DNA of 64,000 nt, taken from Promethearchaeota archaeon. Its GTDB lineage: Archaea; Asgardarchaeota; Lokiarchaeia; Sigyniarchaeales; SOKP01. Positions 25,006 to 42,514 of the stretch are shown here, in pieces (position 1 is the stretch's first letter; every line of letters begins with the position of its first letter). The notes under the pieces are model-generated. The model did no database searches and was not told the DNA's origin. It was given only the letters and a program-made list of their open reading frames with translations. Position numbers and translations under genes: made by a program. The DNA is taken from positions 1 to 64,000 of the forward strand of contig JAHLWP010000002.1 in assembly GCA_019057865.1 (NCBI GenBank). The letters are read 5' to 3'.

Positions 25006-25817
25006 ATGATAGAAACAAAACAAAAAATAATCAATAGAAAAATAATAAAAATTAACGAGGAACTCTGTACTGGATGTGGTAGTTGCGTAGTCGACTGTGC
25101 AGTGATATAAAATTTGATTTATATAGCATAAAAGGCGCACTCGCAATTATCGATGGAAAAGCTAGAGTTATAAATGAAGTCTTCTGCGATGGTCTGGGTG
25201 CATGTATATCTGGTTGTCCTGAGGGCGCACTTGAAATAATAGAAAGAGAAGCTTTAGAGTTCGATGAAGAAGAAGTTGAAAAACATTTAGAAGCTATGAA
25301 AAATAATGAGCAGGTTGAAATAGAACAAGTAAAACAAATTGTTGCTGAGCATGCCCATCAATGTGGTTGTCCTTCCGCTCAAACAATGGTTTTTGATGAA
25401 CCAGAGGCGCAAACAGAAGTAAGAGGAAAAATCTCTTCAACTCTACGACAATGGCCTGTTCAAATGCATTTAATCTCTCCTATAGCGTCATATTACCATG
25501 GGGCAGATGTTGTACTTTCAGCAGATTGTGTTGCTTACTCGTATGGTGATTTTCATAGGGACTTTCTAAAGAATAAATCTATTGCTATTGCCTGTCCTAA
25601 ACTAGATCAAGGTCGAGATATATATATCGAAAAAATTAAAGCCTTGATAGATGACGCTAAAATTAACACTCTAACTGTTGCGATGATGGAGGTTCCTTGT
25701 TGTTCGGGATTATTAGCGTTGACCCAAGAAGCAGTTAAGAGAACAAATCGAAAAGTTCCAATTAAATTCATTATCATTGGCATACGAGGAGATATTTTAA
25801 AAGAAGAATGGATCTAA
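25006..25817 (+). CDS. 2x[4Fe-4S] ferredoxin-domain Fe-S protein, intron-containing (exons 25006-25102 and 25132-25817; 260 aa spliced)
   Basis: Exon 1 MIETKQKIINRKIIKINEELCTGCGSCVVDCA-G; exon 2 AA-GAL...CDGLGACISGCP, WPVQ, ACPKLD, MEVPCC. Confidence 0.85.
25103..25131 (+). other. Predicted BHB-type (tRNA-endonuclease) mRNA intron, 29 nt
   Basis: Central helix GTGC/GCAT, bulges AG|T and AA|A, inner stem ATATAAA/TTTATAT; removal gives TGT GCA GAA GGC (CAEG). Confidence 0.82.
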
Positions 25818-30353: not shown

Positions 30354-30477
30354 TTCAGATTTTTTTTTCAATTACTCCTTTTTATATAATACACCTTTAA
30401 AACTATAAGAAATGAAATAAGAATTATTTTAAAGATTAAAACAAACTTTTAATAAATTATCTCAATTTTTATCTAAA

Positions 30478-31463
30478 GTGATTACTATGAAAGAACGGAT
30501 AAAGGGTAGAAAAAATTTCCCTACAGAGGAAGTAGAGCCAATTAATTATATAAATGATGATGAAATCATAGCAATGATAAAGAAGAAAGACAAATATACC
30601 TTTAAGCAAAAAGATTATTACAAATTATATAATTGTGTTCATTGTGGTGAGTGTGACACTGAAAACGAGCGTCTTCTGTTAAAGCAAAAATTCCTCCAAG
30701 ATGGAAATTCAGTTGAGGGGCTGAATGAGATGATCAAATGTTTTGAGAAATATAGGTCACCTTACCCTTCAAATAAAATGCGTATTAAGAGACCAGAAGG
30801 AATCCCTGATAAATCTGATACCCTCTTCTTTATGGGATGCCTTTCTACAATAAGGATTCCAAGATACACAGAACACTCGTTAAAATATTTATTACGACAT
30901 AAAGTTGATTTTACTATCCTAGATACTGAGATCTGCTGCGGTTGGCCTTGGTTTGCTAGTGGTTCAATGCGGGAATTTGAAATTTGTAAAGAAGAGAATA
31001 TAGAAATCTTTAAAAACTTTAAAAGTATTATTTGCCTTTGTCCAGCTTGCTATTTTCTATTTAATAAATATTATAAGCCATCAATGGATACAGAAATAGA
31101 ATTCAAATATATATCCAATTATTTGAAACCTTCAAAGACTAAGAAATCAGGTAAAGTGAGTATTCAACACTTATGTCAGCTAATGAATAGAGGAAGAGAA
31201 GGGGTTGATCAACTAGTAAACCGTATATTAGAAAAAAGTGGATACGAGGTGATTAATATGCCACATTGGTGTTGTGGGGGGGATTAGGCTATATGCATAG
31301 AACAGATATTATAGAAAAAATCGCCCGAAAAAGAATGGAAGATTATAAAGGGGGTGATTTTGCTAGCACATACTGTCCTAGTTGTTGGTGGATTTTAGCC
31401 AGATTTAGCAAACTTTGTAAGATAAAGCCAAAAGCTAAGGATTTATTCGAATTATTATTATAG
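30478..31463 (+). pseudogene. CCG-domain (HdrD/GlpC-like) Fe-S protein, frameshifted at the G7 run (31276-31282); may be a sequencing error
   Basis: One extra G joins HWCCGG to GLGYMHRT...YCPSC, matching the paralog (CCGGGVG). Confidence 0.7.
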
Positions 31464-39247: not shown

Positions 39248-39787
39248 ATGATTAGTCAAAAGTTAAAATTAGACGATATAGATCGTCAAATTATTACACT
39301 AGTACAAGAAGATCCGAATTTAACTCATACCCAGATTGCGGAAAGAATAAATCGCAGTCAACCTACAGTTGGGATGCGTATTAAAAAACTTGAAAAATCT
39401 GGTATATTACAATTCCAACCTGGGATTAATTTTAAAAAAGTAGATCTGTTTTTAGCAACAGTAGAAATTAATTCAAGCAATCCTGAAGAAATTATGGAAA
39501 TGGCAACTTGTTGTCCTTTCATGCTTAATGCTTTCAGATTGAGTGGAGAACATAATATTTGTATTTTATTAGCAAGTTCTAAACTTGATAAGCTTGATGC
39601 TATCGTAAATTACCATTTTAGAAAAAATCCAGAAGTATCATTAGTTTCAATGGAAATCGTGACTGATATCGCTAAAGATTTCATATTACCAATCGACTTT
39701 GACTCTGAACATCATGAACCCAATGAAGAAGTCGGCTGTGGAGAGAAATGCAAATATAAACTAGCCAAGATGCAAAATAAAATCTAA
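39248..39787 (+). CDS. Lrp/AsnC family regulator
   Basis: LDDIDRQII, SQPTVGMRIKKLE, SGEHN; C-terminal CGEKC. Confidence 0.9.
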   Translation: MISQKLKLDDIDRQIITLVQEDPNLTHTQIAERINRSQPTVGMRIKKLEKSGILQFQPGINFKKVDLFLATVEINSSNPEEIMEMATCCPFMLNAFRLSGEHNICILLASSKLDKLDAIVNYHFRKNPEVSLVSMEIVTDIAKDFILPIDFDSEHHEPNEEVGCGEKCKYKLAKMQNKI

Positions 39788-39806
39788 CCAAAAAAATAAA
39801 AACTTT

Positions 39807-40376
39807 TTAATCTTCTTGTTTAAGCTCATTAAACTTAAATCGTGGTAAATCTTCTTTTAAAGAGCATCCAGGACCGCAATATCTACCATCAAATTTCTCA
39901 ATTGTGAAATCAATTGGGACTACGAAATCATGGATAGATTCTATTAAAATATTTGTTTTTACGTTGATTACATTAGGGTCTCTTCTAAAACATAAATCTA
40001 CTAATTTTTCGATTGTTTGTAAATCTGAAGCTGCAATAAAACATAACATATTAAATTCCCCCGAAATTTTAAATGCATGATTAATAAATGGGCAATTTTT
40101 TATTTTCTCAACTACATTTTCAACATCTTTAGTTGAGATATATACAATAGCAACTTTTATATCAACTTCTTTCACATTAAATCCAACTTGCTTTGTCAAA
40201 AGATGCTTTCTTTCCAATTTAATGATTCTTGCACCTACTGCAGGCTGGGATTTTTCAATCTCTTTAGCTATAGCAGAATGAGTTATATCTGGGTTTTTCT
40301 CCATCATCTCGATGATTATCTTATCGGCATCATCGATGCTTAATAATTCATTAAAACTTTTTTTCTTCATATCCAT
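39807..40376 (-). CDS. Lrp/AsnC family regulator
   Basis: IDDADKII, SQPAVGARIIKLE, SGEFN; C-terminal CGPGC. Confidence 0.9.
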   Translation of the reverse strand: MDMKKKSFNELLSIDDADKIIIEMMEKNPDITHSAIAKEIEKSQPAVGARIIKLERKHLLTKQVGFNVKEVDIKVAIVYISTKDVENVVEKIKNCPFINHAFKISGEFNMLCFIAASDLQTIEKLVDLCFRRDPNVINVKTNILIESIHDFVVPIDFTIEKFDGRYCGPGCSLKEDLPRFKFNELKQED

Positions 40377-40577
40377 TTTATTTCATAACCTCACGTTAAT
40401 TTAAACTTATTTTTAATAAATTTAAATTTTTTTAAGAGAATGATTATAGAGAATAATACTATTCAATCAAAACTTTTTGTATTATAAATTTATAATTATA
40501 AATCTAAAGTTTAAAGGTAGTATTAAATTTGAAATTAATGAATTAAAAAAAAAATAAAAAATAAAAAGGTGAATTGA

Positions 40578-42514
40578 ATGGAAGGAAAAAGAATTTCTTA
40601 TCATGATTCAGTTCAAAAAGTTTATGAGAGAATTAAAAAAGATGGAATGATTAATATTTGGGACCGTTTTGAGGCACAAGGTTTTGGTGGTGATCCTGAT
40701 AAAAGATGTCCTTTTTGTTTGAAAGGTGCAAGATGTGATTTATGTTCAAACGGTCCATGTAGAGCAGATGCTTCAATTGATAAGAGAGGTGTATGTGGTA
40801 TTACCGCTGATGGAATGGCAATGCGAATGATGCTTCTGAGAAACATATTGGGCGCATCAACTTATCACTATCACACAGAACAAACGATTAAAACATTAAG
40901 AGCAACTGCGGAAGGAAAAACACCATTTAAAATTTCAGAACCAGAAAAGCTCAAAAATTTTGCAAAAAGACTTGGTGTTGATATTTCTGGCTCAGATAAT
41001 GATATTGCTCTTCGATTATGTGATTTTGTTAAAGAGGATTTTAACAGAGCCTACGACAAACCTAGCAAAATTGTAGAGACTTTAGCACCCAAAGAAAGAC
41101 AAGAAGTATGGAAAGAATTAAATATATTTCCAGGGGGAATTTATGGGGAGATGATGCTTTCTAATAGTTCATGCTTGACAAATGTGGATGGTTATTATAC
41201 GAGCTTAGCTCTTAAGGCCATGAGACTTGGAGTTTCCATGGCTTACCAAAGTCAAATTGTAAATGAATATTGCCAAGATATCCTTTTTAATATTCCAAGA
41301 CCCCATAAAATGCGTGTAAATCTTGGAGTGCTTGATCCAGATTATGTCAATGTAATACCTAATGGACATGAACCATTTTTAGGATTTGCTATGGTTCAAG
41401 TTGCTAGAAAACCAGAATGGCAAGAAAAAGCAAAGGTTGTAGGCGCTAAAGGTCTTAGAATAATAGCCAATATTGAAACTGGACAAGAAATGATACAAAG
41501 ATGGGAGATGGATGATGTTTTTTATGGGTTCACAGGTAATTGGATAATGCAGGAAGCTATTTTAGCGAGTGGTTGTATTGATATTTTTGTATGTGATATG
41601 AACTGTTCGATGCCAATTGATCCAATCTATGCTGAGAAATATAAATTTAAATTAATCCCTGTAAGTGAAGTAGTAGCTTTTGAAGGTATTACAGATAGGT
41701 TAAATTATATTCCCCAAGAAGCAGAAAAACAAGCAGAACAACTTTTACAGATGGCAATCGACAACTTTAAAGAGCGAAGGGCAAGTGTGGAACCAGTAAC
41801 AGGATTAGATATGAGTGAAGCTATTGTTGGTTTTTCTACCGAAAGTATCCTTGATGCACTTGGTGGAACTTTAGATCCTCTATTAGATGCTATAAAGAAT
41901 GGCACAATAAGAGGAATTGCTGGATTAATTTCTTGTACAAGCTTAAGAGATAATGGTCAAGATGTCCATACTGTAAGTATTACCAAGGAATTGATTAAAA
42001 GAGATGTATTGGTGTTATCAATGGGGTGTGGTAATGGAGCTCTACAAGTAGCAGGGCTTTGTTCCCCAGAGGCAAAAGAACTCGCAGGTCCGGGTCTTAA
42101 AGCGATATGTGAGAAATTAGGCACACCCCCAGTTCTAAGTTATGGAACATGCACAGATACAGGACGTGTCGCGGATTTAATTGCCATAATTTCAAATGCT
42201 CTTGGAGGAGTCCCAATTCCTGATCTTCCAGTAGTAGCAGTAGCTCCAGAATATATTGTTGGTGGATTCGGAACCAATAAGCTTTAATGGAGCAGAAGGC
42301 TACAATTGACGCGATCTTCGCGTTAGCGTTTGGATTATATACGTACGTGAACCCTGTACCTACGGTTACTGGTGGTCCCGATCTAGTTAAACTTTTAACT
42401 GAAGATTGTAAAGATGTTACCGGTGGTATCTTACACGTCGAAACTGATACACTCCAAGCTGTAAATTCTATGTTAGAGCATATTGAAGCAAACAGGAAAA
42501 AATTAGGTATTTAA
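40578..42514 (+). CDS. cooS: Ni-Fe carbon monoxide dehydrogenase CooS, intron-containing (exons 40578-42254 and 42287-42514; 634 aa spliced)
   Basis: CDLCSNGPC, GVCG, NGHEP, GLISC, GCG, YGTCTD; PEY|MEQKA restored by removing 32 nt. Confidence 0.9.
42255..42286 (+). other. Predicted BHB-type mRNA intron, 32 nt
   Basis: Exon-exon stem GCTCCA/TGGAGC, relaxed central helix GAAT/GCTT, bulges AT|A and TA|A, inner stem TTGTTGGT/ACCAATAA. Confidence 0.85.

What the first reader, a model, noticed from the sequence alone, without database searches (positions are those of the whole stretch)
42243..42293. tRNA-type (bulge-helix-bulge) intron inside the cooS CO dehydrogenase mRNA
Seen: the cooS ORF ends PEY-IVGGFGTNKL* and a second ORF begins MEQKA, while the expected CooS motif is contiguous (PEYMEQKA, containing the conserved active-site Lys). 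The 32-nt insert (42255-42286) and its flanks fold as follows: exon-exon stem GCUCCA(42243-48)/UGGAGC(42288-93), central 4-nt helix GAAU/GCUU (two G-U, one A-U, one A-C mismatch), 3-nt bulges AUA and UAA, and an 8-bp intron stem UUGUUGGU/ACCAAUAA. Established: archaeal EndA cuts after the second nucleotide of each bulge. Applied here, this gives GAA UAU|AUG GAG and a 634-aa CooS. Archaeal mRNA introns are known to me mainly from crenarchaeal cbf5; I know of none described in a metabolic Fe-S enzyme of an Asgard archaeon. That it is spliced in vivo is inference.
Basis: partly seen in the sequence, partly recalled or inferred. Interest (0 to 1): 0.95.

Follow-up and report, generated by a model that had tools for sequence, protein, structure and literature searches.

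The report
Mobile tRNA-type mini-intron in Asgard cooS-V
A 32-base insert shaped like the introns archaea cut out of tRNAs splits an iron-sulfur enzyme gene of an Asgard archaeon right beside an active-site residue; relatives keep its fold by compensating changes and often carry a DNA-cutting gene next door, so it is very probably a spliced and mobile mRNA intron, a kind I found published for only one archaeal coding sequence.

Summary
Confirmed. A 32-nt insert (42255-42286) lies exactly between Tyr559 and Met560; removing it gives a 634-aa protein 98% identical to intronless relatives. Twelve distinct 32-nt variants occupy this site and keep the bulge-helix-bulge (BHB) fold in 98% of paired cells, with two-sided changes. 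The window's A·C mismatch is G-C or A-U in its closest relatives. Split-gene and frameshift readings fail in most variants, and exon 2 encodes a cluster ligand (Glu556 of CooS-V). The genome has two EndA subunits and RtcB. Its only uS12 and RpoA1 genes are broken by similar inserts, so mRNA splicing looks obligatory.

Correction: the protein is CooS-V type (Cys295→Glu); its characterised relative does not oxidise CO.

Addition: carriers are scattered over the gene tree, and 5 of 8 type-B carriers have a convergent homing-type nuclease gene nearby (none in the window), suggesting collaborative homing.

Splicing is not shown directly: the only RNA run missed the junction. This scan noted the same cooS intron in another genome and many similar introns elsewhere.

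The parts
40566..40572 (+). Shine-Dalgarno-like motif of the gene start; the exon-2 ATG has no comparable motif
   Evidence: sequence
40578..42254 (+). Exon 1 of a CooS-V-type (prismane/CODH family) gene, Met1-Tyr559; carries D-cluster Cys44/Cys47 and cluster ligands His264, Glu300, Cys343, Cys453, Cys484, Cys525
41475..41477 (+). Glu300 codon, the Cys295→Glu exchange diagnostic of the CooS-V subclade
   Evidence: PMC9311411
42243..42248 (+). 5' strand of the exon-exon helix h (pairs with 42288-42293, 6/6)
42249..42252 (+). 5' (exon) strand of the central helix H; A42251 faces C42282, a mismatch in this allele
42253..42255 (+). 5' bulge; predicted cut between 42254 and 42255
   Evidence: BHB rule (PMC2738675); matches the boundary set by intronless orthologs
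42255..42286 (+). 32-nt intron (type A): 8-bp stem 42256-42263 with 42273-42280, 9-nt loop 42264-42272, H 3' strand 42281-42284
42285..42287 (+). 3' bulge, which is also the stop codon of the unspliced frame; predicted cut between 42286 and 42287
42287..42514 (+). Exon 2, Met560-Ile634; Glu561 (42290-42292) = Fe ligand Glu556 of CooS-V; Lys563 (42296-42298)

Best explanation
This is a genuine BHB (tRNA-type) intron in the mRNA of a CooS-V-type Fe/S/O-cluster protein of a Promethearchaeota (Lokiarchaeia) archaeon. Shown: the insert, its exact position, its conserved fold across 12 variants, intact exons under purifying selection, and the presence of EndA alpha+beta and RtcB. Inferred from established archaeal biochemistry: the two-subunit EndA cuts after the second base of each 3-nt bulge (42254|42255 and 42286|42287) and RtcB joins the exons, restoring Tyr559-Met560 and a 634-aa chain with its seventh cluster ligand. 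Unspliced RNA gives a 569-aa product lacking that ligand. Inferred, less certain (about 0.6): the intron family spreads sideways between Lokiarchaeia lineages by collaborative homing. A free-standing nuclease downstream cuts the uninterrupted, highly conserved junction; the intron protects its own allele; the nuclease later decays or is lost, as in the window's lineage.
For: Twelve distinct inserts, all 32 nt, all at the same phase-0 site. 98.1% of 216 cells pair, against 25-50% when slid by 1-3 columns; 4 pairs have two-sided changes. Exon-intron compensation in H: GAGU/GCUU in L043, GAAU/GCUU in the window, GAAU/GUUU in L030 and L042. Synonymous flank codons needed for the motif are fixed in carriers: TAT 12/12 vs 9/20 in non-carriers, GAG 12/12 vs 10/20 (kin not independent). 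Exon 2 pN/pS among type-A carriers is 0.07-0.20, like non-carriers. It is the only CooS-type copy in a 99.7% complete genome. EndA x2 and RtcB are present. In a motif-free census against relatives' proteins, all 9 distinct sense-strand frame-breaking inserts in about 500 gene loci have H of at least 3/4; 7 of 12 rows of 20-60 nt are BHB-like against 0.17 expected. These include the only uS12 gene (in-frame TAA) and the only RpoA1 gene, the latter with a 3/4 central helix. Mobility: 8 changes of state on a 119-protein tree, and the AU test rejects one clade of type-B carriers (p 2e-72). One nuclease family (PHROG homing/intron-encoded nuclease hits) lies convergently downstream in L044, L047 and L063 and 4.9 kb away in G069, the only close hit in 161 genomes; a LAGLIDADG gene sits there in L052.
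Against: No spliced read or peptide was seen. The window allele has the weakest central helix of the 10 variants scored and the only non-canonical H pair among all 12 (3/4, two G-U), so it may splice poorly, or C42282 may be an assembly error. No nuclease lies beside any type-A carrier. No co-conversion signal was found across exon 2. Tree counts cannot tell repeated gain from repeated loss.
Confidence: 0.88

Rival explanations
1. The family is a spliced intron, but the window's allele (A·C in the central helix) is spliced poorly or not at all, so this copy is a weak or young dead allele, or the C is an assembly error.
For: It is the only one of 12 variants with a non-canonical H pair; H pairing probability is about 0 and BHB energy is 6.7 kcal/mol above the MFE. 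The gene is patchy (22 of 41 genomes) and probably dispensable.
Against: Both outer helices are perfect (6 and 8 bp). The essential RpoA1 insert also has a 3/4 helix. Two-subunit EndA cleaves relaxed motifs (PMC2738675). Both exons are intact.
Confidence: 0.08
2. Split gene: two chains made by translational coupling at the TAATG overlap, which assemble into one enzyme.
For: Exon 2 starts with ATG; stop and start overlap in the window; gene callers annotate a separate 75-aa product.
Against: The overlap is present in only 4 of 12 variants; the gap is 14 or 20 nt in the rest and exon-1 tails vary from 3 to 10 residues. There is no SD motif before the exon-2 ATG. The break falls one residue before a direct Fe ligand. 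A split gene does not explain the fixed 32-nt length or exon-intron covariation.
Confidence: 0.03
3. Ribosomal frameshifting or bypassing over the hairpin.
For: The insert forms a stable hairpin and ends in a stop codon.
Against: In 8 of 12 variants the exon-1 frame stops before the exon-2 frame opens (overlap 0 nt). There is no matched take-off and landing codon. A shift would put about 10 extra residues into the active site.
Confidence: 0.01
4. For the patchy distribution only: an old intron lost many times by precise deletion, not spread by homing.
For: Types A and B are homologous (L061 is intermediate); no co-conversion tract was detected; no nuclease lies near type-A carriers.
Against: Carriers are a small minority (3 of 154 genomes of the order), each nested among intronless sisters. 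A 70-79% identical nuclease accompanies carriers in four different host clades and was not found at that level in the other 160 genomes of the class searched.
Confidence: 0.3

Closest known systems
BHB intron in the cbf5 pre-mRNA of Crenarchaeota (Watanabe 2002; Yokobori 2009, PMC2738675)
   Same: Short (cbf5: 16-44 nt) BHB intron in a coding sequence, at a catalytic motif, often with a relaxed motif, in a host with a two-subunit EndA; gain and loss across lineages.
   Different: Different phylum and gene; fixed 32-nt length; phase 0; one of many such introns in this genome; sporadic distribution with neighbouring nucleases; splicing confirmed by cDNA for cbf5 but not here.
BHB intron in the 5' UTR of Haloferax HVO_1309 (PMC7714728)
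   Same: mRNA substrate of EndA.
   Different: 46 nt and outside the reading frame; the paper names cbf5 as the only other mRNA case.
Asgard tRNA introns (bioRxiv 10.64898/2026.10.13.758758)
   Same: Same lineage, same motif, repeated independent gains, two-paralogue EndA in 44 of 60 genomes.
   Different: tRNA genes only; the text has no occurrence of 'mRNA' or 'cbf5'.
Collaborative homing of phage group I introns with free-standing endonucleases (described in PMC10448857)
   Same: A nuclease-less intron at a conserved site with a homing-type nuclease gene beside the host gene.
   Different: Here the intron is a protein-spliced 32-nt BHB hairpin in an archaeal chromosome; cleavage is untested; the window has no adjacent nuclease.
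CooS-V of Carboxydothermus hydrogenoformans (PDB 7B7Q; PMC9311411)
   Same: Best solved relative (688 bits against 397 for the next); all seven cluster ligands and Cys41 align.
   Different: Bacterial and uninterrupted; activity of the Asgard protein is unmeasured.

Membership tests
Archaeal BHB (EndA-spliced) intron | Two 3-nt bulges on opposite strands around a 4-nt central helix, with cuts after the second bulge base matching the boundaries set by homology | tested here: met
   (motif-free placement leaves 3 equal positions, one of which is the BHB cut)
Archaeal BHB (EndA-spliced) intron | Canonical 4/4 central helix | tested here: not met
   Window allele is 3/4 (relaxed class); the other 11 variants are 4/4. 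It therefore belongs to the relaxed BHB class, which includes many cbf5 introns (PMC2738675).
Archaeal BHB (EndA-spliced) intron | Flanking helices h and h' | tested here: met
   6/6 and 8/8 pairs; covariation in h'
Archaeal BHB (EndA-spliced) intron | Excision restores a functional product | tested here: met
   634 aa, 98% identical to intronless P0124/P0133
Archaeal BHB (EndA-spliced) intron | Host encodes EndA and RtcB | tested here: met
Archaeal BHB (EndA-spliced) intron | Spliced RNA or excised circle observed | tested here: inconclusive
   The one RNA run offered had no cover at 41636-42345
Archaeal BHB (EndA-spliced) intron | Cleavage by EndA in vitro | not testable with these tools
   bench assay
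Ni,Fe-CO dehydrogenase (C-cluster CooS) | Five Cys and one His as C-cluster ligands, including Cys295 | tested here: not met
   Glu300 at the Cys295 position
CooS-V subclade (Fe/S/O hybrid cluster) | Cys295→Glu together with Cys41 | tested here: met
   Glu300 and Cys47
CooS-V subclade (Fe/S/O hybrid cluster) | Ni-free cluster, no CO oxidation | not testable with these tools
   biochemistry needed
Collaborative homing pair | Free-standing nuclease gene linked to the intron-bearing allele | tested here: inconclusive
   Met in 5 of 8 type-B carriers; not met in the window or the other three type-A carriers
Collaborative homing pair | Nuclease cuts the intronless insertion site | not testable with these tools
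   bench assay
Group I / group II intron or any Rfam family | Ribozyme core or Rfam match | tested here: not met
   32 nt only; no Rfam match up to E=1

The most novel reading that the evidence does not exclude
Lokiarchaeia carry a class of about 30-nt, EndA/RtcB-spliced introns in roughly 1% of their protein genes, essential ones included. These introns invade conserved active-site codons and spread between lineages by collaborative homing with free-standing nucleases, which makes mRNA splicing obligatory in the closest archaeal relatives of eukaryotes. The cooS-V intron is a clean case with its candidate nuclease identified.
Probability: 0.55. Interest if true: 0.9.

Novelty: new variant of a known kind. 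Interest (0 to 1): 0.74.

Why it matters
In the papers I could search, splicing of an archaeal coding sequence is confirmed for cbf5 alone. Here the same chemistry appears to be needed for a metabolic Fe-S protein and for ribosome and RNA-polymerase genes in an Asgard archaeon. That bears on how intron-tolerant gene expression, and RtcB-type mRNA splicing such as HAC1/XBP1 (my own knowledge), could predate eukaryotes. This locus adds a testable route of spread, with a named nuclease family and a known target junction. It also offers a natural allele series (G-C, A·C, A-U in the central helix) for measuring EndA tolerance on an mRNA. In practice, annotation pipelines call these genes as fragments (562-569 plus 75 aa), and call the product a CO dehydrogenase although it has the CooS-V ligand set; both errors distort Asgard metabolic reconstructions.

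Tried and rejected
RNA evidence: one run was offered (X1, Logan contigs, 7% of words) and it has no cover over the junction, so it is uninformative either way.

Intrinsic genome-wide BHB scan: 17 frame-joining motifs with the true 3/4/3 geometry against 6-14 with decoy geometries (first try timed out). It did not discriminate and was replaced by the homology census.

Pattern scans returned chance hits unrelated to cooS (L028, L029, L031, L032, L034, L035, L037), which were discarded. Several 75-aa database proteins come from broken or misassembled intronless genes (L053, L054, L060), so a 75-aa product alone does not mark the intron.

The extra ORF downstream of type-A carriers L030 and L043 reads as a secreted hydrolase-like protein, not a nuclease (my reading).

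Exon-2 co-conversion test: no difference between carrier and non-carrier pairs (0.247 vs 0.222-0.240), probably saturated.

The nuclease domain has no Pfam or PDB sequence match; its label rests on PHROG hits, Atlas look-alikes (DUF559-like) and its motif.

The note that an essential leuS is split: the archaeal-type leuS at C1:28378 is intact; the four inserts are in a second LeuRS-like gene at C49, so I relied on uS12 and RpoA1.

No structure or complex prediction was run, since the solved CooS-V structure already places the ligand.

Full report
Observation. The window holds a cooS-family gene in two abutting frames, 40578-42287 and 42287-42514, which match TIGR01702 positions 1-547 and 547-621. 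Seventeen CooS-V genes of relatives read through APEYMEQKA without a break, which fixes the insert at 42255-42286. Removing it gives 634 aa, 98% identical to intronless proteins such as P0124 and P0133. The genome is a Promethearchaeota (Lokiarchaeia) one: a same-family genome carries that label. The segment folds far better than shuffles (z -4.26), and only 49 of 200,000 shuffled inserts give this exact-register geometry.

The insert is a conserved family. Genome, metagenome and protein-index searches gave 12 distinct inserts. All are 32 nt, all lie at the same codon boundary, and they fall into two related types: A (window, L030, L042, L043) and B (L012, L027, L036, L044, L047, L052, L061, L063). 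On the BHB structure 98.1% of 216 cells pair, against 25-50% when partners are slid; three intron-stem pairs and one central pair change on both sides. The three stem changes largely separate type A from type B, so they are few events. The central pair is the most telling: a synonymous third position in the exon is G facing C in L043, A facing C in the window, and A facing U in L030 and L042. The window looks like the intermediate of a compensatory path, or a recombinant or error between the two states. The 9-nt loop varies freely. Both exons are intact and under purifying selection in carriers.

Rivals. The stop-start overlap occurs in 4 of 12 variants. In the other 8 the exon-1 frame stops 14 or 20 nt before the ATG and before the exon-2 frame opens, which rules out a single frameshift and removes a conserved basis for coupling. 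The best solved relative is CooS-V (7B7Q). Counting along that alignment reproduces the paper's Cys41 and Cys521 and puts Glu556, a direct Fe ligand, at the E of MEQKA, the second residue of exon 2. A split protein would need a new N-terminus inside the active site.

What the protein is. The ligand set is His264, Glu300, Cys343, Cys453, Cys484, Cys525 and Glu561, with Cys47 at the bridging cluster. [quoted passage not shown] It is the only CooS-type copy in the genome; a separate 797-aa family member, Cdh-sized, lies on C71. The label 'CO dehydrogenase' is therefore probably wrong, although activity is unmeasured.

Does this cell splice mRNA? It encodes two EndA paralogues, one with the catalytic-type motif, and RtcB, the two-subunit architecture common in Asgard and associated with relaxed motifs. 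I ran a motif-free census: 1,081 frames from about 1.2 Mb of three congeners against this genome, with boundaries placed by protein score alone. In about 500 gene loci it found nine distinct sense-strand frame-breaking inserts in six genes, eight of 28-34 nt and one of 65 nt. All have at least 3/4 central pairs and six have 4/4. Seven of the 12 rows of 20-60 nt were BHB-like against 0.17 expected; cooS itself is one of the seven. They include the only uS12 gene, with an in-frame TAA, and the only RpoA1 gene, with a frameshift and a 3/4 helix. Unless those are repaired at the RNA level the cell has no ribosomes or RNA polymerase, so mRNA splicing, including of relaxed motifs, is the most economical reading.

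How it spreads. Only 3 of 154 genomes of the order match the intron pattern. On a tree of 119 proteins the carriers need 8 changes of state, and the AU test rejects a single clade of type-B carriers (p 2e-72) or of all carriers (p 4e-7). The counts cannot separate gain from loss. A convergent gene directly downstream encodes a nuclease-like protein in L047, L063 and L044 (broken by an in-frame TGA in L044). Its C-terminal domain is 70-79% identical between these hosts and matches PHROG homing and intron-encoded nuclease families. Among 161 genomes of the class, the only close homologue (78%, E 1e-163) is in carrier G069, 4.9 kb from the end of cooS. L052 has a LAGLIDADG gene at the same place. 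That makes 5 of 8 type-B carriers, while no type-A carrier and no intronless locus inspected (flanks mostly 1.3 kb) has one. This matches collaborative homing as described for phage introns, followed by nuclease decay. Cleavage is untested and no co-conversion tract was detected.

Literature. Searches returned cbf5 as the only confirmed coding-sequence case (PMC2738675, which also says introns in other genes had been predicted), a 5' UTR intron in Haloferax (PMC7714728) and a 2026 preprint on Asgard tRNA introns that does not treat mRNA. The library lacks most subscription journals. Earlier notes of this scan report the same cooS intron in another genome and many similar introns; I treat them as leads only.

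Verdict. A real, very probably spliced BHB mRNA intron (0.88) in a CooS-V-type gene, probably spread by nuclease-assisted homing (about 0.6). It is a new variant of a known kind. Direct RNA evidence is missing. Interest 0.74.

Noticed in passing
window 25103-25131 (+): A second BHB-shaped insert (29 nt, central helix 4/4) splits a 4Fe-4S ferredoxin-domain gene (ATG 25006); excision restores a 260-aa frame matching the intact G012 orthologue.
   Followed up: partly
G000 C27, minus strand, about 25030-25059 (L139): The only uS12 gene carries a 30-nt BHB insert with an in-frame TAA inside the PGDG motif.
   Followed up: partly
G000 C27, minus strand, about 30414-30478: The only RpoA1 gene carries a 65-nt frameshifting insert with a relaxed (3/4) BHB next to the Zn-binding motif.
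   Followed up: partly
G000 C49:5260-6156 (+): Four 28-34-nt BHB inserts in a LeuRS-like gene; a second, intact archaeal-type leuS exists at C1:28378-31242, so this copy may not be essential.
   Followed up: partly
G000 C2:3836-3867 (+): A 32-nt frameshifting insert (central helix 4/4, shifted intron stem) in a gene that looks like CdhD/AcsD by recalled motif, unverified.
   Followed up: no
L044:2203-5081 (-): The nuclease-like gene next to the intron-bearing cooS is interrupted by an in-frame TGA, consistent with decay.
   Followed up: yes
G000 C37:32638-34146, C18:57887-58471, C23:195414-196661: Free-standing LAGLIDADG-like genes related to the L052 nuclease occur elsewhere in this genome; their neighbours were not checked for introns.
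   Followed up: no
L030:1046-2119 and L043:3437-4506: A 357-aa secreted hydrolase-like ORF is inserted between cooS and the Zip-like gene in two type-A carriers (broken in L043) and is absent from the window.
   Followed up: partly
L050 versus window exon 1, 600-900 nt before the junction: A block of 34/300 differences amid about 1% divergence, and uneven divergence across exon 2 among close relatives, point to frequent recombination at this gene.
   Followed up: no
window 39248-40376: Two convergent Lrp/AsnC-family regulator genes, one divergent from cooS, with a small ferredoxin upstream; the arrangement is kept in the closest relatives.
   Followed up: no
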